A DNA stretch of 37,653 bases, from NCBI GenBank assembly GCA_038045465.1, contig JBBSYB010000014.1, forward strand, positions 1-37,653. Direction: 5' to 3'. Position numbers and translations under genes: made by a program. The notes below the pieces were generated by a model. It saw only the letters and a list, made by a program, of their open reading frames with translations. It had not been told where the DNA came from and did not search any database. This DNA comes from Candidatus Aenigmatarchaeota archaeon (GTDB taxonomy: Archaea > Aenigmatarchaeota > Aenigmatarchaeia > GW2011-AR5). This document shows positions 7,736 to 37,653 of this stretch, one piece after another (positions within the stretch are counted from its first letter, which is position 1; every line of letters starts with the position of its first letter).

Positions 7736-9601
7736 ATGACAGATATGGAAAAAAGACTAAAGGAAGTGGAAGCTTCCATAAGAATGCTGGCAGAATTTGT
7801 GAGAAGACAGGCTGATGCAATTGATGAGACGGCTGGCGAAGATTACAAGGAAGAAATTGAGAAAATAAAAGAATCTTTTTCTGATGAGAAAGAGCTCATA
7901 CGGCTGCAAACAAGGAAATTAGACAAGCTAGAAGAACAGGTCGTGAGTATTACAAAGAATCCTAAAAACAAGGCTGCAGAAGAGAAGATGAGAAAAACTG
8001 TTAACGACGCGCGTGCTGAGCTGGAAACATTGCGCCACGAGTTGCTGCCTAAGGTAAAATTCATCGAAGGAAAAATGGACACGATAAAGGAAGCTGTTGA
8101 AGACGTGCACGAAATGCATGAAATGAAAAAATACCTCAAGGAACTCGAAAGAAAGCTGGAAAGCAGCGTTGCAAACGTGGAAAGCGAGCTGAAGGGCGTC
8201 AAGGAACTCACAAAAACTGACTTCAGCGAGAACTACAAGGCGAACCTTGAAAAAATAAACGAGGCGATGCTTGCACGCTTCAGGGATGATAACGCAGCGT
8301 ACTTCGAGAAGCTTGGTTATATTGAGCAGCGCCTGAATGCAATGACTGAAAAATCCGCTGAACCTAATGGTGACATACTTCAAAGGATGCAGAAACTTGA
8401 CGAAAAAGTAATTGGAATCAAGGAATCGGTAAATAACATGCTTTCAATCAGCCCGGAAGAGCTGAAAGACCGTGTCGATTTCGTGGACAAGCATGTCAGG
8501 GAAATGAGGGCAATCACGAATAGATTGAGGGATTTTGACTCGGAAATCTACAAGGAAGAAATGGATAAACATGTAAATGATTTACTTACACAATTCAAGA
8601 ACAAGGAATTCAAGGACGTAAAAGAAGTGGGTGAAACACTTTCGCATTTCAAGAATATGGAGACGCAGGACATAAAGAAAATCAGTGAGATGGTCGACGA
8701 GTTCAAAACAATGGAAGTTGACGACATCAAAGGCCTGAAAAACATTGAGTCCAAGGACATAAAAAAACTGGGCAGCATGCTTGAGGGCCTGGCGGGCATT
8801 GAAATGGAGGATGTCAAAAGACTATCCAAGCAACTCAAAGACACGAGAGATAAAATAACGCTGGAAGAGGAAAACAGCCACGCCGCAGAGGAACGTCTTG
8901 TCAGCGTAGAAGAAATGATAGACCAACTGAAGAAATCAGAAAGGAAATTTGACGAGCATATTTATGGTATTCTGGATCATTTCAAGGAACTAGAGCTCAA
9001 CAACGTGAAGGACATCGCAAAGCAGATGAAAGAGACAAAGGAAATACTGGAAGAGGAGTCGGTTAATAGGCAGTCGTTTGAAAAACGTATCATGGACCTG
9101 GAGTCGAAAACGGAGAAAATCGACAGCATGGAGATTCATGATATTGAGAGTCTTGCCAATGAGATGAAATCCGCCAAGGATGCTTTGGAAGATGAGTCCG
9201 TAAACAGGCAATCGATGGAAAAACGGTTTCATACTATTGAAACAGAGGTAGGGCAGTTGCGTGGCATAGAATTCGGGCAGGAGAACGCCGAGCGGGTTGA
9301 CATTACAAAAATCAACAACCGCATCCAGGACATGGAAAGCAACATGAAACTTATGACCGTCAAGCTGCTTACGCAGCAGCTGAACGAATTCGCAAAATCA
9401 ATTGACAGAAGACTGCCAAATATTGTCAGCCGCGAAGAGTACCTAAGACAGATAGCTGACATGCAGCAGAGATTGCGCAACATAGAGGCTCCGGACATGG
9501 CACCGCTGGGCGCGCGCGTTGAAAGGCTAGAACGTAAAATAGAAGAAGTAGCCGGCATGATGCGCGGCATGTACAACCGGATTCCTATTATCGTCGAGTA
9601 A
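7736..9601 (+). CDS. large coiled-coil protein with internal tandem repeats (621 aa), unknown function
   Basis: Starts 9 nt downstream of the previous stop. Five short repeats (FKNMETQDIKKISEMVDE-like) and two long repeats ending ...LE(E/D)ESVNRQS(F/M)EKR. Confidence 0.65.
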   Translation: MTDMEKRLKEVEASIRMLAEFVRRQADAIDETAGEDYKEEIEKIKESFSDEKELIRLQTRKLDKLEEQVVSITKNPKNKAAEEKMRKTVNDARAELETLRHELLPKVKFIEGKMDTIKEAVEDVHEMHEMKKYLKELERKLESSVANVESELKGVKELTKTDFSENYKANLEKINEAMLARFRDDNAAYFEKLGYIEQRLNAMTEKSAEPNGDILQRMQKLDEKVIGIKESVNNMLSISPEELKDRVDFVDKHVREMRAITNRLRDFDSEIYKEEMDKHVNDLLTQFKNKEFKDVKEVGETLSHFKNMETQDIKKISEMVDEFKTMEVDDIKGLKNIESKDIKKLGSMLEGLAGIEMEDVKRLSKQLKDTRDKITLEEENSHAAEERLVSVEEMIDQLKKSERKFDEHIYGILDHFKELELNNVKDIAKQMKETKEILEEESVNRQSFEKRIMDLESKTEKIDSMEIHDIESLANEMKSAKDALEDESVNRQSMEKRFHTIETEVGQLRGIEFGQENAERVDITKINNRIQDMESNMKLMTVKLLTQQLNEFAKSIDRRLPNIVSREEYLRQIADMQQRLRNIEAPDMAPLGARVERLERKIEEVAGMMRGMYNRIPIIVE

Positions 9602-9645
9602 GCCTCTTTCTTTTCGGAAAGAAAGATCCTTGTGAGAAAGAAAAC
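9602..9645. repeat. bipartite pyrimidine/purine hairpin element, copy C
   Basis: Begins at the base after the TAA stop. 9-bp stem 9605-9613/9618-9626 with loop tcgg, followed by ...gagaaagaaaac. Confidence 0.6.
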
Positions 9646-9679
9646 TTATTATATTTTGGCTCACTAACGTTCGCGATAA

Positions 9680-16532: not shown

Positions 16533-16546
16533 AGTGGGTTCGAGGA

Positions 16547-16585
16547 ACCCTTTCTAAAAGAAAGCGTTCACGGAAAGAAATATTA
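16547..16585. repeat. bipartite hairpin element, copy D, flanked by a 12-nt direct repeat of the tRNA 3' end
   Basis: ctttct/agaaag stem at 16550-16564, then gcgttcacggaaagaaa. tgggttcgagga occurs at both 16535-16546 and 16586-16597. Confidence 0.6.
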
Positions 16586-16741
16586 TGGGTTCGAGGAGAT
16601 TTGAACTCCTGTCTCAAGGTACATCGCACCTTCTTTGGTACTTTCCGAAAAGAAAGGTGTCCCGAACCTCGGATCCTGACCATTCTAGAGCCTTCTTTCC
16701 GCAAGAGCTACGACGAAATGGCTTAGCTAGACTACGAACCC
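16586..16741 (-). tRNA. tRNA-Pro (anticodon CGG) with two introns (D-loop and 37/38)
   Basis: Minus strand. Perfect 7-bp acceptor GGGTTCG/CGAACCC. T-arm AGGAG-TTCAAAT-CTCCT. Anticodon stem CGAGG/CCTTG with loop TT-CGG-GA after removing 16660..16621 (40 nt). The D-arm is only restored after removing about 42 nt (16726..16685). No encoded CCA. Hand-folded; boundaries +/- a few nt. Confidence 0.7.
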
Positions 16742-17586: not shown

Positions 17587-17994
17587 CTAATAGTCCAAAG
17601 GCTTTATCGTTTTAATTCCTTTTATGTCTTCAAAATGCGAATCGTTTGTTATGATTGCATCTATGAACTTTTCTTTCATTACAGCAACAAAAACAGTGTC
17701 AAAATAGTTTGCTTCATATGAAGAGAATATGGAAAGTGCATCAATTTCATGTTCTTTTACAACATCTTCTATATCCATTGGCAAAGCCAGCAGAAGCTCA
17801 GCGACATTGGTAGCGATTTTCCTGTTTACATTTCTGTCAATAACTTCCACAACTTCCGCTACGTTCAACACGGATGTAGTAGCTTCTAGTTTTCTTGATT
17901 CGATATCCTCTATTATTTTTTTACACGCCTTCCCGAATTTAGGGTGTGCTTGTGCCGCATAGATAAAGATGTTCGAATCGATAAAAGCTCTCAT
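17587..17994 (-). CDS. vapC: PIN-domain toxin (VapC)
   Basis: MRAFIDSNIFIYAA N-terminus, ...DTVFVAVM..., ...ITNDSHF. 4-nt overlap with the upstream antitoxin. Confidence 0.75.
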   Translation of the reverse strand: MRAFIDSNIFIYAAQAHPKFGKACKKIIEDIESRKLEATTSVLNVAEVVEVIDRNVNRKIATNVAELLLALPMDIEDVVKEHEIDALSIFSSYEANYFDTVFVAVMKEKFIDAIITNDSHFEDIKGIKTIKPLDY

Positions 17995-18236
17995 TCTCTA
18001 CTACTCCTTATCTTGTGCACTGCTTCTACTGCATCGCCTTTGAACTTTGCAGAGCCGTAGAGCTTTGCCGATATGTTTTCTATTTTTTTTGCTGCTAGTA
18101 GTTCGATACCGGTTTCTCTTGGTATCAAAGACACTTTGGAGCCACGCTTCACTCCATACACATCCCGAAGCTTTTTCGGTATTGTTATCTGATACTTGTC
18201 AGTCACCTTAGTTTGGTATACCATTCTTACCACCAT
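17991..18236 (-). CDS. vapB: AbrB/SpoVT-type antitoxin (VapB)
   Basis: TKVTDKYQITIPKKLRDVYGVKRGSKV is a swapped-hairpin AbrB motif. An alternative start is at 18224. Confidence 0.7.
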   Translation of the reverse strand: MVVRMVYQTKVTDKYQITIPKKLRDVYGVKRGSKVSLIPRETGIELLAAKKIENISAKLYGSAKFKGDAVEAVHKIRSSRE

Positions 18237-18273: not shown

Positions 18274-18313
18274 GAACCAAACAAGCATAGCACAGCTACG
18301 AGCCCTAACGAAT
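18274..18313. repeat. R-repeat copy R1 (5'-truncated)
   Basis: gaaccaaacaag...agctacgagccctaacgaat. The final 20 nt are identical to R2. Confidence 0.65.
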
Positions 18314-18913: not shown

Positions 18914-18957
18914 GCCCGCACATGACCAAACCATCGGACAAACACAACTACGAACCC
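18914..18957. repeat. R-repeat copy R3
   Basis: gcccgcacatgaccaaaccatcggacaaacacaactacgaaccc. By hand count, 31/44 ungapped identities to R2. The last 11 nt are identical to 16731-16741 (complement of the tRNA 5' end). Confidence 0.6.
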
Positions 18958-20388: not shown

Positions 20389-20440
20389 GCCTGCACAGAA
20401 CCAAACAAGTAGCATAACAAAGCTACGAGCCCTAACGAAT
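20389..20440. repeat. R-repeat copy R2 (full length)
   Basis: gcctgcacagaaccaaacaagtagcataacaaagctacgagccctaacgaat. Contains a gtagc/gctac stem. Confidence 0.65.
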
Positions 20441-21155: not shown

Positions 21156-23321
21156 CTATTCAGCGCTACTGAGGACTTCCTTGGCAACTTTTGGACCTAG
21201 CAGCTTTGCCAGCACGATTTCGTCTGCTTTCTTGATATCAACGGGCGTGCGGATTCCAGCGTTGAATAGTTTTCTTGCTCTTGCTCTTCCTATGCCTTTC
21301 AGGGTCACAAGCTTGAGGAGCTCTTCCTTTACACCATGCTTGACCTGCAGACGCACTTTGTTTATGTTGTTTGCTATTTCCTTTATTCCCAACAACATGG
21401 CTAATTCGCTCGCTGAGTATAATAGCCATTCAGCGTTTGTTGTTTTATTGTATAATTCGCCTGGGGTCACGCCGTATTTTTCAAGTATTACATCCTCGCC
21501 AGATTCACTGGTCCATTCTTTGATAAGCAAAGCTGTCTTGAATTCACTCAAAAAGTCTTCATATTCCACATCCCATACATCAGGTGCCTCTATGTCAGAT
21601 TTCGAAAGCTCATCTTCTATATCCTCATACTCTTTTTTCTTTACGCTGAGAAGCGGATACATTTCAGTGCACTGGCAGATCATCATCAGACTTTGGATAG
21701 GTGTGTCATCTTCGGTCATCAAACCTAGTATAAGATTTGCCGAAACGGGATCCAGGTATAACTCGCTTACACGCTTGCCGAGCTTTGTCGCATGCAGCTC
21801 AACATCCTGGGTAAGCTGAAAAGCCGGCATGAATTCCTTTGATATAAATTCACCCTTATTTCCCACGATTATAAATTTGTAATTTTCCAGTTCGGTTATT
21901 ATGCGCTCTATTTTTCCTTTAATACTTTCGATATCGCCGTATTGTTTGGCAAAAAAAGTCCGCATAAAGAATGTTTCAAGCTCGCCTCTTGTTTTAACAT
22001 AGCCTGAAGAAATGAGGGATAAAATGTAAACCCGCAGAACACGCTCCACACCTAGCTTTGAATAAATGGGTTCTGCATCGCCACTTATGTAACGCTCCCA
22101 GAGTGCTTTTGCCTCACTTTTGCTTTTGGCAAGGAGTATTGCCTCGCCTTCTGTATCGTACTTAGGCCTACCTGCACGTCCCATGCATTGATGAATGTCT
22201 ATCACCGGAATATAGGACATGCCGTAGCTTCCGTTAAATCGTTTTGTATCCCTAATAACGACACGATACGCGGGTAAATTCATGCCATATGCTAATGTAG
22301 TTGTGGCTGCCAAAACCTTCAGCAGACCGGAGCGAAACGCGTCCTCGATAAGCTTGCGCTGTTTGCTCACTAAACCAGCGTGATGGAAAGCTGTACCGCC
22401 TTCAACTATGCGGGCGAGACGACGGCATTGCTTTGTCGGATTGCTGAGAACATTCTCAATGTCATTCGCCAATTTTTTTAGTCGATCACGCTCACCTACG
22501 GCCAGAGCTTTTTTCAGATCCTTGGAGAGCTTTTCCGCCACAGACTCCGCACTTCTCCTGGTTGATACAAACATGAGTGTTTGCTTTTCCTTTTTAGTTG
22601 TGTCAAGGCAGATAGCTGTTTCTATATCAGCTTCAAGTGGAATTGTGCTCTTGCGTCCGGAAAATTCTAGCTTGTAATTTTCATTGTCAGGGTACATTAC
22701 ACCCTTGTGCAACTTAACGGGACGGTAATCGCTTTTTACAAGCTGGGCATCGAGCCACTCGGCAATTTCTTTAGCATTTTCTATGGTTGCAGAAAGCGCG
22801 ACTATCTGCGCTCTTGTTATGCCTGCTAATTGCGTCAGCACTACCTCCAGGGTCGGCCCGCGTGTTGGGTCGTCAATAAGGTGAATCTCGTCGGAAACAA
22901 TCAGGGCAATGTCCTTGGTCCATGGCACGCCGTGGCGCAACAATGAATCCATTTTTTCGTTGCTGAGAATTATCAGATCATAGCTGCCGAGCCAGCCGTC
23001 GCTGCTGTCCAGGTCGCCAGTGGAAACGCCGACGCGCATGCCTATCTTCTTGTACTTGCTGAAATCCTCGTACTTCTCTGATGCGAGAGCTTTGAGCGGC
23101 ACAAGATAAACGCTTTTCTTACCTTCCAAATAATTTTTTAATATGGCCATCTCGGCGATCAATGTTTTGCCAGAGGCTGTGGGCGACGCTATTACCATAT
23201 TTTTTCCGTCAAGAAGACCTTTTTTAATAGCGGCAACCTGCGGTGGGTTGAGCTGCTCTATACCGCCCTGTTTAAGCAGCGCAATGAGTTTTTGCGGCAG
23301 TGGGAGTTTTTCAAGAAGCAT
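21156..23321 (-). CDS. hel308: Ski2-like DNA helicase Hel308
   Basis: Motif I ASPTASGKT, motif II SDEIH, HHAGL, GMNLPA, QCMGRAGR, and C-terminal HhH GIGRARARKL. The ORF-track start 23327 is GTG; ATG at 23321. Confidence 0.85.
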   Translation of the reverse strand: MLLEKLPLPQKLIALLKQGGIEQLNPPQVAAIKKGLLDGKNMVIASPTASGKTLIAEMAILKNYLEGKKSVYLVPLKALASEKYEDFSKYKKIGMRVGVSTGDLDSSDGWLGSYDLIILSNEKMDSLLRHGVPWTKDIALIVSDEIHLIDDPTRGPTLEVVLTQLAGITRAQIVALSATIENAKEIAEWLDAQLVKSDYRPVKLHKGVMYPDNENYKLEFSGRKSTIPLEADIETAICLDTTKKEKQTLMFVSTRRSAESVAEKLSKDLKKALAVGERDRLKKLANDIENVLSNPTKQCRRLARIVEGGTAFHHAGLVSKQRKLIEDAFRSGLLKVLAATTTLAYGMNLPAYRVVIRDTKRFNGSYGMSYIPVIDIHQCMGRAGRPKYDTEGEAILLAKSKSEAKALWERYISGDAEPIYSKLGVERVLRVYILSLISSGYVKTRGELETFFMRTFFAKQYGDIESIKGKIERIITELENYKFIIVGNKGEFISKEFMPAFQLTQDVELHATKLGKRVSELYLDPVSANLILGLMTEDDTPIQSLMMICQCTEMYPLLSVKKKEYEDIEDELSKSDIEAPDVWDVEYEDFLSEFKTALLIKEWTSESGEDVILEKYGVTPGELYNKTTNAEWLLYSASELAMLLGIKEIANNINKVRLQVKHGVKEELLKLVTLKGIGRARARKLFNAGIRTPVDIKKADEIVLAKLLGPKVAKEVLSSAE

Positions 23322-23345
23322 AAACACAAATCACCATCTAAAGAC

Positions 23346-25347: not shown

Positions 25348-25352
25348 AAAAC

Positions 25353-25396
25353 TCCTTTTCTTTGGGAAAGAAAAGTAGCTTCCAGTCAAAAGAAAT
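25353..25396. repeat. bipartite hairpin element, copy E
   Basis: ccttttctttgggaaagaaaag (25354-25375) is identical over 22 nt to 33436-33457. It is followed by gtagc...gctac and aaaagaaat. Confidence 0.65.
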
Positions 25397-25446
25397 TGCT
25401 ACACTTTCCTATAAGACTTTTGCAAGAAAAGCTTAAGAAGAAATTA

Positions 25447-27806: not shown

Positions 27807-30800
27807 ATGGTAGATAATGTAAAAACGAAAAAGGGAACCAAACTTAGGGGAGCCCTTTACAGAAAATTGCATAGCAAAAAAACTGTTATAAACGGAACCC
27901 GTGCAGGCCAGATGCTATTATGCATGCGAAAAACCGAGGAACCTAAGTTCAGGTTTGAGCCGATGAAATCCCTTATCACATTACCGCGGCCTTCTGACAT
28001 AAAAATAAGCGGTATTGTTTATCCTCTGATAAAACCCTATTCTTATGCCAATATACATTACGACGCCAAGGAAGGTGCTGTAGTATACGATATTATCGAG
28101 CCAAAGCTCAACGAAAAGGAAATATTCATACTCAAAAAGGTTTATGATGGCTTGGTGCAGATAATAGATATTACCCTATCGGACATAAAGGAAAAGGAAA
28201 AGATGATTGTATTCCTTGAAAAGAGCGTTACCCGTCTTCTGGATGAATATGAGATTAAGGTAAGCGAAAAGGAATACGTAAAGATAATGTATTATATTTT
28301 TCGCGACCTGGTTGGCCTCAACCGTATAGAGTCGCTTCTCAATGACCCATACATCGAAGACATAGGATGTGATGGAACAGGAATAGCAATCTATGTTGTG
28401 CACCAGAAGTTTGGTTCTGTGAAGACAAACATTGTTTACCATGAAATCAAAGAGCTGCGCGAATTTGTCACGAAACTCGCGGAAAGATGCGATAGATACA
28501 TCAGCTATGCGGATCCACTACTGGATGGTTCGCTACCGGACGGAACTCGAGTACAGGCATCGCTGGCCAGCGACGTAACTACGCGCGGGCCTACATTCTC
28601 AATAAGAAAGTTCCGCGAAGAGCCAATTTCTCCAGTGGACATGATACGGCTCAATACAGTCTCGGCTGAAATGCTCGCTTATCTATGGTTCTTGATAGAG
28701 AACGACATCAACATACTGATAGCAGGAGGCGTAGCAACTGGCAAAACCAGCCTATTGAACAGCATATCATTTTTCATTCCACCCGAGGCAAAGATAGTCT
28801 CAATTGAGGACAGTGTTACCGGCGACGCGGAAATGCTGATTAAAAGAAACGGAATTGCCGAACTTGTAAAGATAGGCGACCTTGTGGACGAGATGATAAA
28901 CAAGTATGGAAGAGACAAAGAGCACGGCGAAAACAAAGAAGGTATAGAAGTCCTTACCATGGATAAAAACTGCAAAATAGAATTCCAGAAACCCTCTGCA
29001 TTCATACGCCACCTGGTAAACAAAGATATTTATGAAGTTACAACAGCCACAGGCAAAAAAGTAAAGGTCACAAAAGACCATTCTTTATTCGGTCTGGATG
29101 ATTATGGAAACGTGATAGAGGCAAAACCCGAAGACCTGGAAAAAATCAAATTCATCGCAACACCACGCTGCATACCTTACGAAGGGAGTGAAATAACAGA
29201 AATAAATCTGATTGAGCATCTCGACAAACTTAGTGGAGAGTTTCTTACAGGTGCACCTATTTCACGAATTTTTGAAATCCCTTACGACGAATTCAAAAAG
29301 ATAGGCGTTGACAAAGGCAAATACGCATGGTGGAAAAGAAAATCAATGGTATCAACGGACGTTTTTGCGCAATTATCCAACAAAACCACATTTACTAGGG
29401 ACGAAATTGAGCAGATAAGAATAATTGGAAAAAGATCATGCGTTTCTATGCCTGTAATTTTCCCAATAAACGACAACTTTCTCAACTTCTTGGGCTTATG
29501 GGTTGGCGACGGTTGTTATGACAGCAGAAATAAAAACAGGGTAATCATTTCGAACATTGACAAGGAATGCATAGAAGCAGTTAGAAGGCTCGCAGCTTCT
29601 CTAAATATAAACGTAAGCCTGATGTCTGATAACGTTTCAATGAGCCTCAATTCCACCTTGCTGTACAAAGTCATGAAAAACGTCCTCGGCTTTGACGGAC
29701 ATGCGGATACAAAGCGCATACCCACCTTTATACAAAACACATCTAACGGGCAGATATCTGAGTTCTTGAAAGGCTACTTCTCTGCTGACGGAACCGTTAA
29801 AAATTACGAAGCTTCATGTTCGTCACAGAGCCTCGGGTTGCTCAATGATATCCAGACGCTTTTGCTGAGATTTGGCATTATATCAAGAATTTCTCACTAT
29901 ACAAGAAAGGACAAATGCAGAGATCTTTCTATATCATCCAGCGAAAATATATCAAAGTTCAGGCGTATAGGATTCCTTCAGGAAAGGAAGTCCTCAAAAA
30001 TAGAAATACTGGCTAGTAGGCATTCGCACCATACTAAAACAGATATAATTCCGCTCGGCGGAGAACTTGCGGCAGAGATAAATCAGTACCAAAAATTATC
30101 TTTCCCTTACATGAATGGAATGCAGAACATTGGAAGACAATACCTGCAAACTATTGTACGCGACTGCGAGTCCCAGATGCTTCATCAGCTCGCAGAGTCA
30201 GATATATTCTGGGACAAAGTAAGAGATGTAAGAATAATGCCAAGTGAGGAAATTTATGTTTATGATCTTAGCGTTCCGGAGAATGAAAGCTTCGTGTGCT
30301 CGAATATAATCCTCCACAATACACGCGAACTAAACCTGCCGCACGAAAACTGGATACCTGGCGTTGCGCGAACAGGCTTTACTGGCACAGGCGTCGGCGA
30401 GGTCACGATGTTCGAGCTACTGAGAGAGTCATTTAGACAAAACCCGGACTACCTGATAGTCGGAGAAATAAGAGGCAAGGAAGCCTATGTCATGTTCCAA
30501 GGTATGGCGTCTGGTCATCCGTCTATCTCAACTATCCACGCTGGCGGCGTCGAAGATCTCATGAAAAGACTGCAAACAAAACCCATAAGTCTTTCTGTCG
30601 GCCTGATAGAAAGCTTGGACATGGTAATAGTTATGATACACGCGCGCGAGAAAGGAAAGTCAGCGCGACGCGTGAAGGAAATTGTCGAGATAGAAAGCAT
30701 AGACATCAATACAGGCGCCCCGCACAGCGTAAAGTCATTTGTGTGGATACCAGCTGAGGATATCTATGAGTACAGGTCAAATTCGTGGCTGCTTAACAAG

Positions 30801-30995
30801 GTCTCTACGGAGAAAGGAATACCTATGAGCGTCATAGTCAGCGAGATAGCGAAAAGGAAAAAAGTTTTGATATGGATGCTTGAAAACAACATAACGAACA
30901 TGAAAGATATTGCAAAGTACGTAAGCCTTTGTCATCAAAGCCCTGAAAAGATGGCAAGGATTTTGGCAGGCGAAAAAATGCTGGGCGACGAATAA
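27807..30995 (+). CDS. FlaI/VirB11-family (T2SSE) secretion ATPase, intein-containing precursor
   Basis: Walker A IAGGVATGKTS, Walker B/Asp box IVSIED...TRELN (split by the intein), His box GHPSISTIHAG. N-terminal YPLIKPYSYANIHYD...YDIIEPKL is typical of FlaI. The extein sum is 559 aa. Confidence 0.8.
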   Translation: MVDNVKTKKGTKLRGALYRKLHSKKTVINGTRAGQMLLCMRKTEEPKFRFEPMKSLITLPRPSDIKISGIVYPLIKPYSYANIHYDAKEGAVVYDIIEPKLNEKEIFILKKVYDGLVQIIDITLSDIKEKEKMIVFLEKSVTRLLDEYEIKVSEKEYVKIMYYIFRDLVGLNRIESLLNDPYIEDIGCDGTGIAIYVVHQKFGSVKTNIVYHEIKELREFVTKLAERCDRYISYADPLLDGSLPDGTRVQASLASDVTTRGPTFSIRKFREEPISPVDMIRLNTVSAEMLAYLWFLIENDINILIAGGVATGKTSLLNSISFFIPPEAKIVSIEDSVTGDAEMLIKRNGIAELVKIGDLVDEMINKYGRDKEHGENKEGIEVLTMDKNCKIEFQKPSAFIRHLVNKDIYEVTTATGKKVKVTKDHSLFGLDDYGNVIEAKPEDLEKIKFIATPRCIPYEGSEITEINLIEHLDKLSGEFLTGAPISRIFEIPYDEFKKIGVDKGKYAWWKRKSMVSTDVFAQLSNKTTFTRDEIEQIRIIGKRSCVSMPVIFPINDNFLNFLGLWVGDGCYDSRNKNRVIISNIDKECIEAVRRLAASLNINVSLMSDNVSMSLNSTLLYKVMKNVLGFDGHADTKRIPTFIQNTSNGQISEFLKGYFSADGTVKNYEASCSSQSLGLLNDIQTLLLRFGIISRISHYTRKDKCRDLSISSSENISKFRRIGFLQERKSSKIEILASRHSHHTKTDIIPLGGELAAEINQYQKLSFPYMNGMQNIGRQYLQTIVRDCESQMLHQLAESDIFWDKVRDVRIMPSEEIYVYDLSVPENESFVCSNIILHNTRELNLPHENWIPGVARTGFTGTGVGEVTMFELLRESFRQNPDYLIVGEIRGKEAYVMFQGMASGHPSISTIHAGGVEDLMKRLQTKPISLSVGLIESLDMVIVMIHAREKGKSARRVKEIVEIESIDINTGAPHSVKSFVWIPAEDIYEYRSNSWLLNKVSTEKGIPMSVIVSEIAKRKKVLIWMLENNITNMKDIAKYVSLCHQSPEKMARILAGEKMLGDE
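28812..30320 (+). mobile_element. intein (503 aa) with LAGLIDADG homing-endonuclease domain
   Basis: Ser1 (SVTGDAEM), block B TKDHSLF, LAGLIDADG motifs LGLWVGDGCYD and LKGYFSADGTV, block F VYDLSVPENESF, block G ILHN followed by Thr+1. Confidence 0.8.
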
Positions 30996-31049
30996 GCCCT
31001 TTTGGAAAAAGCGCTTGCGGAAAAATAACAAGAAGCCCTTTTGGAAAAA
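30996..31049. repeat. bipartite hairpin element, copy A, with 17-nt direct duplication
   Basis: aagcccttttggaaaaa occurs at 30994-31010 and 31033-31049. aaagcgcttgcggaaaa (31008-31024) is identical to 33454-33470. Confidence 0.6.
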
Positions 31050-31070: not shown

Positions 31071-31742
31071 ATGAATAAAATTCCTTCTGGTGTGAGCGGT
31101 CTTGACGAGATTCTTGGCGGCGGCATCCCGGAACGCTATACTATCCTTCTCACAGGAACCTGCGGTTCCGGCAAGACCGTAATGGGGCTTCAATATCTCC
31201 TTTCTTCAAATGACCCGGGCATCTATGTCAGCTTCGAAGAGGAAGAGGATAGCATAAGAGAAACAGCGAAAACATTTGGCTTTGACATAGCAAGGCGCGA
31301 GGCCGCTAAAAAATTCGTCATACTGAAATACGATCCCTTCCGCCTTGAGGACATACTAGAGGTAATAGAAAATAACATACGCGAGATAGGCGCGAAGCGT
31401 GTCGTGTTCGATTCCGTAGCAGCTTTGGGAATATATCTAAAGGACTCTTCTGAACTGAGGAGAATGATACTTCAGATAGACCGGATTATGAAAAAGAACA
31501 AGTGCACCACAGTGATAATTTCAGAGATAGTTCCCGGAAGCTCGTCGTTGTCAAGATTTGGGGTCGAGGAGTTCGTTTCCGACGGTGTTATCGTTCTTGA
31601 TAATATAAATGTCAGGGGCGAGTACAAGCGAGCCGTTACGGTATGGAAACTGCGTGGAGTCGATCATTCTAGACGCGTACATCCATATAATATTACAAGT
31701 CGCGGCATTGTTATAAACCCAAAAACCGTTTTCGTGAAGTGA
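31071..31742 (+). CDS. single-domain KaiC/RecA-superfamily ATPase (FlaH-like)
   Basis: IPSGVSGLDEILGGGIP, Walker A LTGTCGSGKT, Walker B RVVFDSV. At 223 aa it is similar in size to FlaH. Confidence 0.65.
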   Translation: MNKIPSGVSGLDEILGGGIPERYTILLTGTCGSGKTVMGLQYLLSSNDPGIYVSFEEEEDSIRETAKTFGFDIARREAAKKFVILKYDPFRLEDILEVIENNIREIGAKRVVFDSVAALGIYLKDSSELRRMILQIDRIMKKNKCTTVIISEIVPGSSSLSRFGVEEFVSDGVIVLDNINVRGEYKRAVTVWKLRGVDHSRRVHPYNITSRGIVINPKTVFVK

Positions 31743-32626: not shown

Positions 32627-33433
32627 ATGAAAAAAATCCAGATGAACCTGAAAATATTGAGTGTTATAACACTTAGCGTTGGCGGAGTCGCACTGCTGAT
32701 TAATTTTATTTTTCTTTCTGTATACCCGACAATTTACGCTTTTGTTAATGTTGGCGCTGCTGTGGTAATAATCGGATTGCCTCTCCTCTACAAATTCAAT
32801 AAGTTCAAAAAAATAAGACTGATAGAGGAATTATTTCCTAAGTATCTCAATGATATAGCATCGAACATAGCCGCAGGCATGACACTACCGCAGGCTATAC
32901 GCGCGACAGCTAACATAGAATACGGAGTGATGACTCCTTACGTGCGTGAAATAGCTTCCAAAGTTTCCTGGGGCATAACATTTGAGCGCATAATGAATGA
33001 TTTTGCGAAAAAGACTGGCAGCAAAGCAATGAAGAGAAACGTCCAGACCATAATAGAAACGCACCGATCCGGCGGCTCCATGGATACCATAATGCGGTCG
33101 GTTGCCCAATCTCTTGTGGAACTGGAGAAAATTAAAAAAGAAAGGTCTGCCTCGGTTTATGCACAGATGATAAACGGCTATCTTATTTTCTTCGTTTTCC
33201 TTGGCGTAATGATAGGACTTTCATCAGTACTGGTCCCGGCCTTCCAAATGAACGAGCAGCAGGAGGATCTCCGGGGCGTCTTCAGCGAGATTTTCCGCGC
33301 GCTCATAATTGTACAAGGGTTTTTCGCTGGCCTTTCCATTGGAAAGATGGCCGAGGGCTCTCTCATAGCAGGCATAAAACACTCCTTAGTGATGGTTGTA
33401 ATAGGTTACTCGGCTTTCCTGCTGTTCGGGTAA
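32627..33433 (+). CDS. type II secretion F-domain membrane protein (FlaJ/TadC-like, C-terminal half equivalent)
   Basis: 268-aa ORF starting 4 nt after the previous stop, with the same TM / helical-domain / TM layout. Confidence 0.55.
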   Translation: MKKIQMNLKILSVITLSVGGVALLINFIFLSVYPTIYAFVNVGAAVVIIGLPLLYKFNKFKKIRLIEELFPKYLNDIASNIAAGMTLPQAIRATANIEYGVMTPYVREIASKVSWGITFERIMNDFAKKTGSKAMKRNVQTIIETHRSGGSMDTIMRSVAQSLVELEKIKKERSASVYAQMINGYLIFFVFLGVMIGLSSVLVPAFQMNEQQEDLRGVFSEIFRALIIVQGFFAGLSIGKMAEGSLIAGIKHSLVMVVIGYSAFLLFG

Positions 33434-33475
33434 GCCCTTTTCTTTGGGAAAGAAAAGCGCTTGCGGAAAAGAAAC
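33434..33475. repeat. bipartite hairpin element, copy B (most complete)
   Basis: Begins at the base after TAA. 9-bp stem cttttcttt-ggg-aaagaaaag (33437-33457), mini-stem cgc-tt-gcg, tail gaaaagaaac. Confidence 0.65.
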
Positions 33476-33608
33476 ATATTATAAATATAAAAAGGGTCTC
33501 ACTGGTGTTCGGATAAAGTTTATATATTGGGAAAGTACAGCTATTATTGATGAACAAAGATGATAATCATCGATATGTCGCAATGATGATTACCATTAAT
33601 GAAGTGTT

Positions 33609-34526
33609 ATGATGACTACAGAAGAAAGGATAACAGACATCGTGGATAATTCCTCCTATGGTCTTACGGTGGAAGAGCTCTCTTTGAAAATGCGTATAAA
33701 CGAAAAAAGCACCCTGCTGTTTCTTGACAGGCTTGTCGCGGAAAAAAAAGTTAAGAAGACGCGGGCGGGCAGCATGTTTTTCTACAGGAAATTTATCATA
33801 ATTATACCTATTATGCTGGTCTTTCTCATGGGAACGGCCAGTGCTCAGGACATCAACAGCACAAACTTCAAGATTATCCCGGTCCTGGACAGCGCCGGCA
33901 CCCGCGCCCAGAGCACCACCTATGTGCTTTTTGGCAGCGTCGGCCAGATATCAAGCACTACAACTTCTGTGTCATTTAGTTTATGTTCCGGCTTCCTGTG
34001 CAATTTCCTCGAACTAATACTCCACGGAAAGATAACATTCCTGCTGGAGTTTAACATAAGTGGGAATGCCAATGACACGGCTTTTGTTGACAACTACACA
34101 CAAACTACACGGCAATACACAACGAGCGACCTCAATAATTATTATGCCTGCCTGCAGGACGTTAATTTGACCAGTAGCCCGACCTTTGGCATAATCTACG
34201 CAGGCTCGGCACTCAACTACATAAACATATCCTCAGGCAACTCATTTGTACTGAGGCTGTCGCAGGACATTCCAGGAAACAAGTTCATAATTCCTATAAC
34301 AAGCGGCAACTGCACTGTTTTCAATACTAGAACAGCGGAAATCGCGCAATATGGAACGCTGCTGCAGCCGTTTGTGCTGGCGAATGAGGCTATTAATGCC
34401 ATTGAACTGGCGCTGAGCTATCCTTCGGTGCAGATTGCAGGCAGCTTTGACAAGAGTGGCGCCTTTGGACTTATATTCGAGAAGAATGAGACGAATGAGA
34501 ATCAGATAATAGTGAAACCGGTGTAG
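33609..34526 (+). CDS. membrane-tethered winged-helix protein with sequon-rich extracellular domain
   Basis: The N-terminal 60 aa align by eye with the soluble wHTH at 35259..35441 (LTVEELS.K..I..ST....L..L...K.V......G..F). Then a single TM (FIIIIPIMLVFLMGTASA) and about 225 aa with many N-x-S/T sites. Confidence 0.55.
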   Translation: MMTTEERITDIVDNSSYGLTVEELSLKMRINEKSTLLFLDRLVAEKKVKKTRAGSMFFYRKFIIIIPIMLVFLMGTASAQDINSTNFKIIPVLDSAGTRAQSTTYVLFGSVGQISSTTTSVSFSLCSGFLCNFLELILHGKITFLLEFNISGNANDTAFVDNYTQTTRQYTTSDLNNYYACLQDVNLTSSPTFGIIYAGSALNYINISSGNSFVLRLSQDIPGNKFIIPITSGNCTVFNTRTAEIAQYGTLLQPFVLANEAINAIELALSYPSVQIAGSFDKSGAFGLIFEKNETNENQIIVKPV

Positions 34527-35473: not shown

Positions 35474-37653
35474 TTAATGACTGAAGAATGAATTTACCTT
35501 TTCTTTTTTCTTGAAACTTTTCCGGAATTTGAAGATTACCAGCGCTGCAATGGCAATTCCTATTATTATGCTTACAGGCAGCGGATTTACCACGAGTAAC
35601 GTCTCAACGAGCTCTTTAATTGTGGACGTTTTTTCGGTTACGATTGTGTCAGGTGAATTCTTTCCCGGAACTGTTGTGCTGCTTGATGCACTTGTTGTGT
35701 TTGTTGTATTTGTTGTTCTTGTTCCTGTATTTGTTCCACCGCTGCCTGAAACTGAACTTGACAGGCATGTTGGAATTCCGGAGCGGCAGTCAACGCCTCC
35801 GGTGCTGCAGGTTGGTGCATAACAGTCCATCTGACACAGGCAATAATTTTCGTTTGACTGGCACACACCGTCACCGCAGGACAGCTGACCGAGATAGAAG
35901 TATCCCGCGTTGCCGAACGTGACAGAGTTTCCGTTTTCATCGGAAGCTGCCAGATCTATCTTATAAGCTCCAGTGCTTGTGGCGCGGATTGTTTTTGTCC
36001 AGTTTCCTGTTGTAAGAACAAGGTCTGCGCTTATGGTTGATCCCGGATTACTTATTGAAGCGGAGACGGACTTCACTGCGCTCCCCTGGTCTATAATATC
36101 TGCTTGTATTGACACGTTGGTCGGTGAGCTGGGATTAAGCGGAGTTATTTTCAGCGAACGGAACTCAGGCGGGTTTTTGTCAACAAATATTATTTTTGAT
36201 TTTGTTGTTGCATGGTCAAGCTTGTCGGTTGCTGCTATCGTGACATTGTACGGGCCGTCTGCCAGCGAACTAAAATCATACTGGCTTGTGCAATACAAAA
36301 TATCGCTTTGCTGCAGGCATGACATTAGTTTTGTTACTCCTAGGATGGTGTAGGAAACTTTCTGGCTGTCGCCATTCGGGTCATTTACCCTTACGTTTAT
36401 CGTTAGAGTGGCTTTTGTATAATTCGCGCTCTCTATTATTATTTCGGGGTTTGTGTTGTCTATGATAAGAGTTCCGGTGTCTTTTATGTCATAGCTAAGG
36501 ACGTTGCTTGCCGATGCTCTCAAGTCGTAAATTCCGTCAGCGAAAGTGTTTGTATTGAATGGATAGGTGCACTGCGTAAAACCAGAGTTGCAACTCATAG
36601 CAGTGCTCAGCGATTGGGATCTGTTCACGTCAAGCGTAACGGCCGTTATTATTCCACCCGGTCTTGTGATTGTTGCGGTAAATGTTATGTTGCCCTTTGC
36701 ATAATTCTTTGGCGTTAGTATCACGAATGGGCGGGAGTTGCGGAAGGTTACGGGCACAACGGAAGAATTGGAGTTGCCGGCGACGTCGTAGACGGTGAAT
36801 GTTATGCTGTAATCATTGTCGGCAAAGTTTTTTGTTTTCACGGTGCTACTGCAGACATTTCCAGAGCAGGCAAGTGGATAGGACTGATTTATGAAATATG
36901 TAACCCTTGTGGTATTCACACCGGAAAATTGGTCGCTGACATTAACGGAAAATATTTTATCATCATTCAATATACTGCCTGATGCTGGTGACGTCACTAA
37001 AAGCAACGGTATCTCATTGTCTATGCTGACATTCACTTCAGCCATGTTGTAGTTGCCCACGTTGTCAGCAGCGCGCACTTTTACGCTTATAATCTGGTTG
37101 TTTGCATAAGGATAGGTGTTGAGGTAGCCTGTCAGGTTTGCCATGGGCGACCATCCCGATCCAGTAGAGAATTGGATCGTTGAAAGGTTCACGCCGGAAA
37201 CTTCGTCAGTGGCGCTAATATTAAGCGTCGTATTTCCGAAAACATAGGTATAGTTCTTTGGATGAATAAATGTTATCTTGGGCGGGGTACGGTCTATCTT
37301 GAATCTCAGCGGGCTTGTCGGACTTCCCAAATTTCCGTAATCAGTATCCTTTGCCGTGAAATAGAAAAATTCCAGGGTATCGCTTCCTGCTATTGAAAAG
37401 GAAACGGATTTTGTGCAGATCCAATTGTCTGCGGCGTACTGGGTGCACTGCATGGTGTAGTTGTCCCAGGACTCGTTGTTCATGTACGCATCTTCTGATA
37501 TCAACGATAGCCATACGTTATTGGTATCTAGGCTAGTGCTGGTTATATTAACAAAGAAATAAACAGAGCCGCGGCCAAAGTAGCTGTTGTTTGCAGGAAG
37601 CGAGTCAAACATCAAAGGTGCTGCATTACCTACGGCAAAAAACACAAAGAATA
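35474..37653 (-). CDS. giant cell-surface protein with tandem Ig-like domains, Cys-rich module, Thr-rich stalk and C-terminal TM anchor (5' end outside window)
   Basis: Reading frame open to the window edge. Recurrent domain-boundary motifs IDRTPPKI, IDNEIPLL, IDNTNPEI, VDKNPPEF. CGDGVCQSNENYCLCQMDC module, TNTGTRTTNTTNTTS linker, and ...NPLPVSIIIGIAIAALVIFKFRKSFKKKEK tail. Confidence 0.65.
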   Translation of the reverse strand, partial: FFVFFAVGNAAPLMFDSLPANNSYFGRGSVYFFVNITSTSLDTNNVWLSLISEDAYMNNESWDNYTMQCTQYAADNWICTKSVSFSIAGSDTLEFFYFTAKDTDYGNLGSPTSPLRFKIDRTPPKITFIHPKNYTYVFGNTTLNISATDEVSGVNLSTIQFSTGSGWSPMANLTGYLNTYPYANNQIISVKVRAADNVGNYNMAEVNVSIDNEIPLLLVTSPASGSILNDDKIFSVNVSDQFSGVNTTRVTYFINQSYPLACSGNVCSSTVKTKNFADNDYSITFTVYDVAGNSNSSVVPVTFRNSRPFVILTPKNYAKGNITFTATITRPGGIITAVTLDVNRSQSLSTAMSCNSGFTQCTYPFNTNTFADGIYDLRASASNVLSYDIKDTGTLIIDNTNPEIIIESANYTKATLTINVRVNDPNGDSQKVSYTILGVTKLMSCLQQSDILYCTSQYDFSSLADGPYNVTIAATDKLDHATTKSKIIFVDKNPPEFRSLKITPLNPSSPTNVSIQADIIDQGSAVKSVSASISNPGSTISADLVLTTGNWTKTIRATSTGAYKIDLAASDENGNSVTFGNAGYFYLGQLSCGDGVCQSNENYCLCQMDCYAPTCSTGGVDCRSGIPTCLSSSVSGSGGTNTGTRTTNTTNTTSASSSTTVPGKNSPDTIVTEKTSTIKELVETLLVVNPLPVSIIIGIAIAALVIFKFRKSFKKKEKVNSFFSH

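What the first reader, a model, noticed from the sequence alone, without database searches (positions are those of the whole stretch)
33434..33475. Family of bipartite pyrimidine/purine hairpin elements directly after stop codons, sharing exact 16-22-mers with each other and with a tRNA intron
Seen: there are five intergenic copies: C 9602-9645, D 16547-16585, E 25353-25396, A 30996-31049 and B 33434-33475. The common plan is (G/A)CC + CTTT(T)CTTT-loop-AAAGAAA(A)G + a short GC mini-stem (cgcttgcg / cgttcacg) + a purine tail AAA(A)GAAA. B and E share an identical 22-mer (33436-33457 = 25354-25375). A and B share an identical 17-mer (31008-31024 = 33454-33470). C shares the 16-mer ctttcttttcggaaag (9606-9621) with intron 2 of the tRNA (reverse complement of 16641-16656). 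Intron 1 RNA (GCTCTTGCGGAAAGAAGG) resembles the second half of B (GCGCTTGCGGAAAAGAAA). Four copies start within 0-15 nt of a plus-strand stop codon. Copy E has the same plus-strand orientation although its neighbours are on the minus strand, and its purine arm overlaps the GGAG upstream of the GGPP synthase start. The distal purine tail could pair with the 5' pyrimidine arm as an alternative to the proximal arm. Inference: possibilities are a dispersed terminator or RNA-processing module, a splicing-endonuclease substrate outside tRNA, or a mobile mini-element related to mobile tRNA introns. I know of no named element with this structure.
Basis: partly seen in the sequence, partly recalled or inferred. 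Interest (0 to 1): 0.7.

Follow-up and report, generated by a model that had tools for sequence, protein, structure and literature searches.

The report
Intron-type RNA hairpin modules behind genes
The five short repeats are real copies of a small folded RNA module that, in many uncultivated archaea, sits at the start of introns in tRNA, rRNA and RNase P RNA genes; here it lies in the spacers behind protein genes, which offers a concrete handle on how such introns spread.

Summary
All five copies and all three shared exact k-mers are present, with 0 expected by chance. The "GC mini-stem" is the 3' strand of an outer 4-6 bp helix whose 5' strand lies just before the pyrimidine arm; in A, B and C it includes the AA of the TAA stop. 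The plan is: outer helix, C·C mismatch, U-rich/A-rich hairpin, RCGGAAA tail. A metagenome scan found at least 120 loci. The helices covary, with at least 8 Watson-Crick variants of the outer helix. Most copies lie, always in sense, inside tRNA genes (D-, anticodon- and T-loop introns), inside 16S/23S rRNA and RNase P RNA, or 2-4 nt after tRNA and C/D sRNA 3' ends. A model built only from those copies finds A, B, D and tRNA intron 1 in the window. C and E are divergent subtypes. Close relatives (Aenigmatarchaeota) show presence/absence polymorphism, and several copies are flanked by 9-15 nt direct repeats. Most likely this is a proliferating, ORF-less intron-type module, not a terminator. Its insertion mechanism and the role of the conserved tail are unknown. 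No description was found in Rfam or the literature searched.

The parts
30994..31025 (+). Copy A, canonical module. It lies between arlI (FlaI-like ATPase with intein, 27807-30995) and arlH (KaiC-like, 31071-31742). Outer helix AAGC 30994-30997 / GCTT 31013-31016, where the first two A are the last two bases of the TAA stop. C·C mismatch 30998/31012. Inner hairpin 30999-31011. Tail GCGGAAAAA 31017-31025.
   Evidence: CM R1, built only from metagenome copies, scores 52 bits, E 2e-16. Sequence. Present only in the window and L005; absent in L006, L007 and L009-L011.
31033..31049 (+). Partial second copy of A (AAGCCCTTTTGGAAAAA), lacking the 3' strand of the outer helix and the tail. Together with A it looks like a 1.5-unit tandem duplication.
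   Evidence: In L005 the duplicated unit carries an exact repeat of at least 10 nt, ATGAGTAAGC.
33432..33516 (+). Copy B, canonical module plus 3' extension, after arlJ2 (T2SSF, 32627-33433). Outer helix AAGC 33432-33435 / GCTT 33459-33462. C·C mismatch 33436/33458. Inner hairpin 33437-33457. Tail GCGGAAAAGAAA 33463-33474. Extension CATATTATAAATATAAAAAGGGTCTCA 33475-33501. The terminal CTGGTGTTCGGATAA 33502-33516 repeats the gene end CTGCTGTTCGGGTAA 33419-33433.
   Evidence: CM R1 49.5 bits. RNAfold recovers the outer helix, mismatch and hairpin. Direct repeat 13/15, matched by 1 of 300 shuffles. The site is occupied in L005-L007 and L009, but by different subtypes.
16545..16585 (+). Copy D, canonical module with a compensatory outer helix GAAC 16545-16548 / GTTC 16566-16569. 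C·C mismatch 16549/16565. Hairpin 16550-16564. Tail ACGGAAAGAAAT 16570-16581. It lies between gene 16110-16532 (+) and the 3' end of the minus-strand tRNA, antisense to the tRNA. It is bracketed by the 12-nt direct repeat TGGGTTCGAGGA (16535-16546 and 16586-16597); the second copy is the 3' end of the tRNA gene.
   Evidence: CM R1 30.5 bits, E 9e-9. Repeat 12/12, matched by 0 of 300 shuffles.
9599..9679 (+). Copy C, divergent 'C-type' full-length element. It fills the whole spacer between convergent genes 7736-9601 (+) and 9680-10489 (-). Outer helix TAAG 9599-9602 / CTTG 9629-9632 (with a U·G pair), 2x2 internal loop, hairpin 9605-9626, tail TGAGAAAGAAAAC 9633-9645, extension to 9679.
   Evidence: 87% identical (71/82) to the copy behind arlJ2 in L007, a non-orthologous site. 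RNAfold z = -2.1. A C-type copy also sits inside an RNase P RNA gene (L125). CM R1 gives only a weak hairpin hit.
25349..25395 (+). Copy E, divergent 'E-type'. Outer helix AAACT 25349-25353 / AGCTT 25377-25381 (one mismatch). Hairpin 25355-25375. Tail CCAGTCAAAAGAAA 25382-25395. It lies on the + strand between two minus-strand genes, and its 5' arm provides the GGAG in front of the polyprenyl synthase start (25347).
   Evidence: It is 84% identical to an E-type copy that starts directly after a TAA stop, in sense, in L080; L080 comes from the same sample assembly as L001, a contig carrying this window's locus, at the same coverage. Present in L007, absent in L006 and L009.
25413..25443 (+). 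Possible sixth, degenerate family-like hairpin: AAG-A-CTTTT-GCAAG-AAAAG-CTT-AAGAAGAAA, next to E. It is older than E, being conserved in L006, L007 and partly in L009.
   Evidence: Weak CM hairpin hits at 25417-25432.
16586..16741 (-). tRNA-Pro(CGG) gene with two introns. The mature length of 74 nt is inferred by comparison with the orthologues in L009 and L011.
   Evidence: Rfam tRNA 33.5 bits. Orthologues.
16683..16724 (-). Intron 1 (D-loop), a degenerate module: AAGC-C-AUUUCGUCGUAG-C-UCUU-GCGGAAAG... It starts with the module's outer-helix strand. Boundaries are good to about 1 nt.
   Evidence: CM R1 12.2 bits, E 0.024 at 16684-16728 minus strand. D-loop comparison with L009. Fold.
16621..16660 (-). 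Intron 2 (canonical 37/38 position), C-type-like: A-CACC-[UUUCUUUUCGGAAAGUACCAAAGAA]-GGUG-CGA-UGU. The helix CACC/GGUG is the h' helix of a near-canonical bulge-helix-bulge motif. It shares the 16-mer with copy C.
   Evidence: plus manual pairing.

Best explanation
The five elements belong to one family of small, ORF-less, structured modules: three canonical (A, B, D) and two divergent subtypes (C, E). The module is an RNA, or single-strand, hairpin. It has an outer helix of 4-6 bp in which only the pairing is conserved, a conserved C·C mismatch, and an inner stem that always begins C-UUU and ends AAA-G. It ends in a conserved single-stranded tail RCGGAAA(R)(R). In Aenigmatarchaeota and other uncultivated archaea the same module forms the 5' part of splicing-endonuclease (bulge-helix-bulge, BHB) introns in tRNA, 16S/23S rRNA and RNase P RNA genes. 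There its outer helix starts 0-2 nt after the 5' splice site, so it acts as the h' helix. It also fills the trailers and spacers right after tRNA and C/D sRNA genes. In this window, copies have been inserted at the DNA level into the very short spacers behind protein genes. That is why they abut stop codons. Several insertions duplicated 9-15 nt of the target. The intergenic copies are transcribed through as 3'-UTR or intercistronic hairpins. They are probably not spliced and are not efficient terminators. Shown: family identity, the fold, the intron/trailer contexts, the polymorphism and the flanking repeats. Inferred: DNA-level mobility, lack of termination and near-neutrality. Unknown: the enzyme that moves the module and what reads the conserved tail.
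For: Family and fold. The 4 nt before the hairpin covary with the 4 nt after it: CAGC/GCTG 81, AAGC/GCTT 17, mixed 1. On 93 distinct copies 98.7% of cells pair, and the covariation score is 0.189 against 0.051 in shuffles (0 of 500 reach it). The distal stem extends by 1.68 bp against 0.52 when shuffled. Copies found by the model rather than the pattern add the outer-helix variants CGGC/GCCG, AGGC/GCCU, GAGC/GCUC, UAAC/GUUA, UGGC/GCCA and GAAC/GUUC, while the tail stays RCGGAAA.

Window. A model built without any window sequence finds A (52 bits), B (49.5), D (30.5) and tRNA intron 1 (12.2 bits, E 0.024).

Contexts. Every copy inside or after an ARAGORN-called tRNA is in sense. Where the tRNA call is clean, canonical introns start 1 nt before CAGC or at AGC. 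There are inserts in RNase P RNA, in 16S rRNA at a conserved internal stretch that I recall as a known Thermoproteales intron position, and in 23S rRNA. A copy begins 2 nt after C/D sRNA sR36.

Not a terminator. The 42-nt tRNA-Ser/tRNA-Val spacer in L074 is almost all module. A and the L006 insertion sit inside the arl operon.

Mobility. A occurs only in the window and L005. The 170-nt insertion in L006 sits where four relatives have a 2-4 nt spacer, and it is flanked by an exact 9-nt repeat. E is absent from L006 and L009. C is 87% identical to a copy at another locus in L007. Homologous tRNAs carry the module at different D-loop positions.

The pattern has no match in 2.9 million viral contigs.
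Against: No transposase, integrase, reverse transcriptase or endonuclease gene is in the window (Pfam), and no partner protein was identified anywhere. The flanking repeats vary in length (9, 12, 15 nt) and are not significant for window copies A, C and E. They could come from slipped-strand duplication, which is clearly frequent in this family (tandem arrays). The intergenic copies show no convincing bulge-helix-bulge motif. The tail and mismatch are conserved across contigs of 28-57% G+C, which points to a sequence-specific reader, and 'neutral insertion' does not explain that. The site behind arlJ2 is occupied in every close relative, which suggests some local function. The metagenome set was collected with a sequence pattern and extended with a model that rewards the tail, so conservation of the core is partly built in. 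The hosts of most contigs are unidentified.
Confidence: 0.6

Rival explanations
1. Host-beneficial RNA processing or stability signal. A conserved protein (the splicing endonuclease with its DPANN-type loop, or another RNA-binding factor) recognises the mismatch plus the RCGGAAA tail and cuts or protects just 5' of the outer helix. This would define the 3' ends of tRNAs, sRNAs, 5' exons and mRNAs. The copies behind genes would then be functional 3'-end modules rather than passengers.
For: The module begins at a nearly fixed 0-4 nt after the end of the upstream functional RNA in introns, tRNA trailers and an sRNA trailer. The tail and C·C mismatch are sequence-conserved while the outer helix only covaries. 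Orientation is strictly sense in RNA genes. The site behind arlJ2 is always occupied. T-run and A-run lengths are correlated, which suggests a selected alternative pairing.
Against: Presence/absence polymorphism occurs at 86-96% protein identity. Copy E is antisense to its genes. There are tandem reiterations and truncated copies. No upstream helix is available in mRNAs to form a bulge-helix substrate. No protein partner is known.
Confidence: 0.2
2. Single-strand-DNA transposon relic: REP/REPIN- or IS200/IS605-PATE-like. A Y1/HUH-type transposase encoded elsewhere in the genome recognises the imperfect hairpin and the conserved flank and moves the module as single-stranded DNA.
For: The element is an imperfect palindrome with a conserved mismatch and a conserved one-sided flank. 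It is extragenic and often abuts stop codons. All window copies are on the + strand regardless of gene direction. An inverted pair of modules occurs in L080. There is a weak trend for modules to lie on the G-rich strand (37 against 22, p 0.07).
Against: These transposons leave no target duplication, whereas 9-15 nt repeats flank several copies. Strict sense orientation in RNA genes points to an RNA-level constraint. No Y1 transposase is in the window, and none was looked for elsewhere. There is no conserved GTAG-type tetranucleotide.
Confidence: 0.1
3. Archaeal intrinsic (oligo-T) terminators, bidirectional because the hairpin puts a T-run first on both strands.
For: The T-rich run lies directly after stop codons and after tRNA 3' ends. 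C and D lie between convergent genes. B lies at the end of the arl operon.
Against: The T-runs are short: 3-4 in A and D and 4+3 in B. The module sits inside introns of essential RNAs, including copies with T5. It also sits in tRNA-tRNA spacers too short for a promoter and in operon junctions of arlI-arlH and arlJ1-arlJ2. The conserved tail and outer helix are not explained.
Confidence: 0.07
4. Chance similarity of low-complexity T/A-G sequence.
For: The arms are low-complexity, and overall hairpin density in the window equals that of shuffles.
Against: The exact 16-, 17- and 22-mers have 0 expected matches. Independent-model E-values are 1e-9 to 1e-16. There is 87% identity over 82 columns between unrelated loci, and covariation.
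Confidence: 0.01

Closest known systems
Archaeal bulge-helix-bulge (BHB) introns removed by the splicing endonuclease EndA and joined by RtcB
   Same: The module is the 5' part of such introns in tRNA (D-, anticodon- and T-loop), rRNA and RNase P RNA genes. Its outer helix sits where the h' helix belongs. The window's tRNA intron 2 forms a near-canonical BHB with that helix.
   Different: Copies A-E are not inside any RNA gene and show no second bulge or helix. In most intron copies a conserved tail of at least 7 nt separates h' from the central helix, so the motif is relaxed. I found no described BHB intron family with a sequence-conserved core shared across hosts.
Transposing tRNA introns of Thermoproteales (Fujishima et al. 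2010, as summarised in PMC4090602)
   Same: [quoted passage not shown]
   Different: The lineage differs (Aenigmatarchaeota/DPANN and others). The conserved unit is only about 30-45 nt. It also occurs in rRNA and RNase P RNA, in tRNA/sRNA trailers and behind protein genes, with filled/empty site pairs and flanking repeats. I could not read the original paper, so overlap in sequence cannot be excluded.
Small structured intergenic repeats of bacteria (REP/REPIN, Correia, ERIC); from general knowledge
   Same: Short, ORF-less, hairpin-forming, extragenic and often just after stop codons. They are co-transcribed and polymorphic between strains.
   Different: Those are bacterial, are not intron components, and have defined transposase partners or terminal inverted repeats with fixed target duplications.
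tRNA-gene disruption by integrating mobile elements (Sugahara et al. 2012, PMC3293823)
   Same: A partial copy of a tRNA end lies next to the intact gene: the 12-nt repeat around copy D. That paper links intron gain to insertion events.
   Different: That case involves a 1.8-kb element with a recombinase gene. Here the inserted piece between the repeats is 39 nt with no gene.
Archaeal oligo-T transcription terminators
   Same: A T-run lies directly downstream of genes.
   Different: See the terminator rival: the intron, spacer and operon contexts, and the conserved non-T features.

Membership tests
BHB (splicing-endonuclease) intron | Interrupts a stable RNA (or mRNA) gene whose mature sequence is restored by removing it | tested here: not met
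   A-E lie in spacers between genes. The feature is met by the two tRNA introns and by many metagenome copies.
BHB (splicing-endonuclease) intron | Two 3-nt bulges separated by a 4-bp helix at the junctions (or a relaxed helix-bulge-helix form) | tested here: inconclusive
   Intron 2 of the window's tRNA is near-canonical: h, a 3-nt bulge, a 3-bp central helix, a 3-nt bulge, then h' = CACC/GGUG (plus manual pairing). For A, B and D only the h' helix is present; no partner helix was found by eye or by RNAfold.
BHB (splicing-endonuclease) intron | Cleavage by EndA and ligation or circularisation by RtcB | not testable with these tools
   Needs RNA-seq or circRNA-seq, or in vitro cleavage.
Transposing tRNA introns (Thermoproteales type) | Near-identical intron sequences in different tRNAs and at different positions | tested here: met
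   The same core occurs in D-, anticodon- and T-loop introns of many isoacceptors.
Archaeal oligo-T terminator | A run of about 5 or more T at the 3' end of a transcription unit, with no downstream co-transcribed gene | tested here: not met
   T3-T4 in A and D, T4+T3 in B. The module occurs inside introns, operons and tRNA-tRNA spacers. The activity itself was not testable.
REP/REPIN or IS200/IS605-derived palindromic element | Imperfect palindrome, extragenic | tested here: met
REP/REPIN or IS200/IS605-derived palindromic element | Cognate Y1 (RAYT/TnpA) transposase in the genome; no target duplication | tested here: inconclusive
   No such Pfam domain is encoded in the window; the rest of the genome was not available. 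Target-like duplications are present at B, D and the L006 insertion, which argues against membership.
MITE | Terminal inverted repeats and a target-site duplication of fixed length | tested here: not met
   The inverted repeat is internal (the hairpin), not terminal. The flanking repeats are 9, 12 and 15 nt.
Any Rfam 15 family | Match to a curated covariance model | tested here: not met
   No hit on the whole window at gathering score. Nothing on the elements in E-value mode.

The most novel reading that the evidence does not exclude
The module is the functional core of a new kind of ORF-less mobile mini-intron, an archaeal counterpart of eukaryotic 'introners'. It would spread horizontally and within genomes into any transcribed DNA. 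It would survive in essential RNA genes because its own outer helix supplies half of the splice motif. Its conserved C·C mismatch and RCGGAAA tail would be the recognition site of the still unknown machinery that moves it: an RNA-level route through the excised circular intron, or a hairpin-specific DNA enzyme.
Probability: 0.2. Interest if true: 0.9.

Novelty: new variant of a known kind. Interest (0 to 1): 0.72.

Why it matters
How archaeal endonuclease-spliced introns are gained and moved has been an open question since similar introns were seen at many tRNA positions in Thermoproteales; the review PMC4090602 states that the mechanism is unknown. This family gives a short, recognisable core that can be traced. 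It occurs inside tRNA, rRNA and RNase P RNA genes, right behind them, and behind protein genes. There are filled and empty sites between close relatives, and flanking duplications at recent insertions. That makes the question testable, by a census in complete DPANN genomes, by population data and by cleavage assays. The covariance model also flags disrupted RNA genes that standard tRNA finders miss: ARAGORN in default mode found none of them here.

Tried and rejected
Rejected in favour of an outer helix with the 4 nt upstream.

(2) Terminator reading. Disfavoured by the intron, operon and spacer contexts.

(3) ARAGORN in default mode found no tRNA in the window or in seven relatives. The intron option and the Rfam E-value mode were needed.

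(4) Viral origin. The specific pattern has 0 hits in IMG/VR. A low-complexity hairpin pattern gave 6 hits that I took as chance and did not follow.

(5) ORF-context statistics on the metagenome loci using stop-to-stop ORFs were too noisy to use.

(6) Strand bias relative to GC skew is only a weak trend, 37 against 22, p 0.07, and is confounded by gene orientation.

(7) By eye I considered a K-turn (no conserved GA 5' of the helix), a hammerhead core (no stem between CUG... and GAAA), an RNase P minihelix mimic (wrong end chemistry for introns) and a promoter role for the AAAGAAA+ATATTATA extension (the real promoter of the gene after B lies further downstream and is conserved). None is supported.

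(8) Copy E's tail (CTTCCAGTCAAAAGAAA) resembles archaeal origin-recognition boxes as I remember them. This is untested and probably coincidental.

(9) The two 723-aa ORFs are not paralogues.

(10) Literature searches found no description of this module. Fujishima 2010 is not held.
Full report
THE WINDOW

The window comes from an uncultivated Aenigmatarchaeota (DPANN) archaeon from Hainich groundwater. The protein after which copy B sits is encoded on contigs of ENA assembly ERZ1292640 and MAG GCA_964363835.1. Seven syntenic relatives, at 96% to 50% ArlH identity, are titled Aenigmatarchaeota or 'archaeon' MAGs.

The gene map was built from ORFs and Pfam.
- Copy A lies between arlI (FlaI-type ATPase with an intein) and arlH (KaiC-like).
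- Copy B lies after the second arlJ-like gene.
- Copy C lies between convergent genes.
- Copy D lies between a + strand gene and the 3' end of a minus-strand tRNA.
- Copy E lies between two minus-strand genes, just upstream of a polyprenyl synthase.

No transposase, integrase, reverse transcriptase or splicing endonuclease is encoded in the window.

CHECKING THE OBSERVATION

The 22-mer, the 17-mer and the 16-mer shared with the tRNA intron are exact, and none occurs even once in 100 shuffles. The tRNA is real (Rfam tRNA, 33.5 bits, 16586-16741 minus strand, two inserts), although ARAGORN misses it.

Hairpins in general are not enriched in the window: 98 against 99.5 ± 14 in shuffles. The only 9-bp pyrimidine/purine stems are C, E and B. 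All five copies fall in the roughly 9% of the window that is intergenic.

THE ELEMENT IS LONGER AND FOLDS DIFFERENTLY THAN DESCRIBED

I compared orthologous spacers in the relatives. The L007 copy behind arlJ2 is 87% identical, over 82 columns, to window copy C, which lies at an unrelated locus. Full-length elements are therefore about 80 nt. They consist of the hairpin part, a purine tail, a (C/T)(A/T)TATTATA stretch and a GGCTCAC/GGTCTCA stretch.

To get more copies I scanned metagenome contigs with CCTTTN{1,12}AAAGCGCTKGCGGAAA, a pattern taken from A, B and copies in relatives. About a dozen high-G+C hits, most of them lacking the outer helix, look like chance.

In the real hits the 4 nt before the hairpin covary with the 4 nt after it: CAGC with GCTG in 81, AAGC with GCTT in 17, mixed in 1.

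On 93 distinct copies my proposed structure pairs 98.7% of cells, with a covariation score of 0.189 against 0.051 in shuffles (0 of 500 reach it). The two variable inner pairs switch among U-A, C-G and G-C. The distal stem extends by 1.68 bp against 0.52 after shuffling.

Copies later found by the model rather than the pattern add outer helices CGGC/GCCG, AGGC/GCCU, GAGC/GCUC, UAAC/GUUA, UGGC/GCCA and, in window copy D, GAAC/GUUC. Meanwhile the C·C mismatch, the C-UUU...AAA-G stem base and the tail RCGGAAA stay the same.

In A, B and C the 5' strand of that helix includes the last two bases of the TAA stop codon.

AN INDEPENDENT TEST IN THE WINDOW

A covariance model built only from the metagenome copies was run on the window with filters off.

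| Hit | Bits | E-value |
|---|---|---|
| A | 52 | 2e-16 |
| B | 49.5 | 2e-15 |
| D | 30.5 | 9e-9 |
| tRNA intron 1 | 12.2 | 0.024 |

C and E give only weak hairpin hits because they are divergent subtypes.
- C-type: outer helix UAAG/CUUG, a 2x2 loop, tail G(U/G)GAGAAAG.
- E-type: outer helix AAGCU/AGCUU, tail GCAGUCAAAAG.

Their family membership rests on three points: the shared plan, the 22-mer shared between B and E, and close relatives elsewhere. An E-type copy (84% identical) starts directly after a TAA stop, in sense, in L080; L080 comes from the same assembly and has the same coverage as a contig carrying this window's locus. A C-type copy lies inside an RNase P RNA gene.

WHERE THE MODULE LIVES ELSEWHERE

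This was the main surprise.
- ARAGORN with its intron option finds the module inside about two dozen intron-containing tRNAs and 6-8 nt after about a dozen tRNA 3' ends, always in the sense orientation.
- Other copies directly follow T-loop, D-loop or anticodon-loop sequences.
- A crude regex classed 45 of 97 unique copies as tRNA intron or trailer. Reading the rest and running Rfam adds more: three inserts in one RNase P RNA gene, three in a 16S rRNA gene, one in 23S rRNA, and copies beginning 2 nt after the C/D box sRNA sR36. One of the 16S inserts interrupts a conserved internal stretch that I recall as a known Thermoproteales intron position.
- In canonical 37/38 introns with clean tRNA calls, the intron starts 1 nt before CAGC or at AGC. 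The outer helix therefore sits where the h' helix of a bulge-helix-bulge motif belongs.
- The window's own intron 2 shows this cleanly: anticodon stem, 3-nt bulge UGU, central helix UCG/CGA, 3-nt bulge GG|A, then CACC/GGUG (and manual pairing).
- In most other intron copies the conserved tail, and often more sequence, separates h' from the central helix, so the motif is relaxed. That fits lineages whose endonucleases carry an extra loop and whose tRNA genes are heavily disrupted (PMC5829648).

IS IT A TERMINATOR?

Probably not.
- The module sits inside introns of essential RNAs, including copies with five T.
- In L074 a tRNA-Ser and a tRNA-Val are separated by 42 nt, of which 35 are the module, leaving no room for a promoter.
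- Copy A, and a 170-nt composite insertion in L006, sit inside the arl operon, where relatives have overlapping genes or 2-4 nt spacers.

These are inferences from context, not measurements.

IS IT MOBILE?

Among genomes whose proteins are 86-96% identical:
- A is present only in the window and L005.
- The arlJ1/arlJ2 insertion is present only in L006.
- E is present in the window and L007 but not in L006 or L009.
- L007 has a bare 29-nt module inserted in one of two tandem C-type copies.
- The site behind arlJ2 is always occupied, but by different subtypes.

Homologous tRNAs from different contigs carry the module at different D-loop positions.

Several copies are bracketed by direct repeats of the upstream gene's end.

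| Copy | Repeat | Shuffles as good (of 300) |
|---|---|---|
| D | 12/12; the second copy is the tRNA gene's 3' end | 0 |
| B | 13/15 | 1 |
| L006 insertion | 9/9 | 3 |
| L005 copy of A | at least 10/10 | 0 |

Window copies A, C and E show nothing significant. C ends with a 15-nt stretch resembling the arlJ2 gene end rather than its own target, as if it had been copied from the arlJ2 site together with that site's repeat.

The variable repeat length, the frequent tandem reiterations (19-87 nt units) and the lack of any partner gene leave the mechanism open. Candidates are staggered-cut insertion, template switching or slippage at the hairpin, or an RNA-mediated route. The strict sense orientation in RNA genes argues for a constraint, or a step, at the RNA level.

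UNEXPLAINED FEATURES

- The tail and the C·C mismatch are sequence-conserved in contigs of 28-57% G+C, which suggests a sequence-specific reader. The collection method favours this finding, so it needs an unbiased search.
- The number of A in the tail tracks the number of T in the 5' arm (Spearman 0.67, p 2e-13; the copies are not phylogenetically independent).
- The AAGC|GCTT junction makes an 8-nt palindrome.

COMPARISON WITH WHAT IS KNOWN

Nothing in Rfam 15 matches. Five literature searches found no description of this module.

The nearest precedent is the large-scale tRNA intron transposition inferred in Thermoproteales, whose mechanism is stated to be unknown (PMC4090602). Related ideas link intron gain and tRNA fragments to integrating elements (PMC3293823) and report direct repeats near intron borders (PMC11782384).

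What is new here:
- a short conserved core shared by introns of several RNA classes, by trailers and by spacers behind protein genes;
- clear covariation;
- filled and empty sites between close relatives.

I therefore rate it a new variant of a known kind. The caveat is that I could not read the original Thermoproteales paper.

VERDICT

| Question | Result |
|---|---|
| Observation | confirmed |
| Terminator reading | disfavoured |
| Splicing of the intergenic copies | unsupported |
| Mobility | likely, but the mechanism is unresolved |

Noticed in passing
window 27807-30995; L005, L006, L007, L009, L011: The ArlI/FlaI ATPase carries a LAGLIDADG intein (about aa 337-835). L007, L009 and L011 lack it, and L005/L006 have an insert at a different place (after about aa 188). 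The intein content of this gene is therefore polymorphic among close relatives.
   Followed up: partly
window 18284-18313 and 20411-20440 (also about 18948-18957, minus strand): A 30-nt direct repeat (93% identical) brackets a 2.1-kb island encoding GrpB and an AAA_14/DUF4143 ATPase. Read on the minus strand, these repeats and a third copy begin with GGG(C/T)TCGTAG, the first 10 nt of the tRNA-Pro gene. L007 and L011 have similar tRNA-5'-like fragments. These may be attachment-site scars of integrating elements.
   Followed up: partly
L047 4142-4359 (also L054, L107); L057, L042, L084; L006 11530-11570: Tandem arrays occur. In one, an 87-nt unit repeated at least 3 times each contains a module. 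In several loci, 19-33 nt units starting CTGGCGGAAAG are reiterated right after a module. The family is prone to slippage or has an iteron-like property.
   Followed up: no
L007 about 9790-9995: At the arlI-arlH junction, where the window has copy A, L007 has an unrelated insert of about 220 nt made of several different hairpins. This looks like another small repeat family using the same site.
   Followed up: no
window 33555-33600; L005-L007, L009 orthologous positions: Conserved inverted repeats (GATGATAATCATCGA ... TGATGATTACCATTAATGA) lie between a conserved AAAGTTTATATAT promoter-like box and the start of gene 33609-34526. This is likely an operator.
   Followed up: no
window 17587-18236 (-), 5767-6398: PIN-domain and MazE/AbrB-type toxin-antitoxin pairs lie next to the variable island and next to an aIF5A-like gene.
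   Followed up: no
window 21156-23327 and 35474-37645: Two ORFs of exactly 723 aa with GTG starts looked like duplicates but are unrelated: one is a Hel308-like helicase, the other an Ig-like-domain protein.
   Followed up: yes
L075 3446-3500, L087 1512-1570, L024 1055-1613: Some module-bearing contigs of 51-55% G+C carry a Pyrococcus-type C/D sRNA (sR36) or a CRISPR array. The module is therefore probably not confined to DPANN archaea; these hosts were not identified.
   Followed up: no
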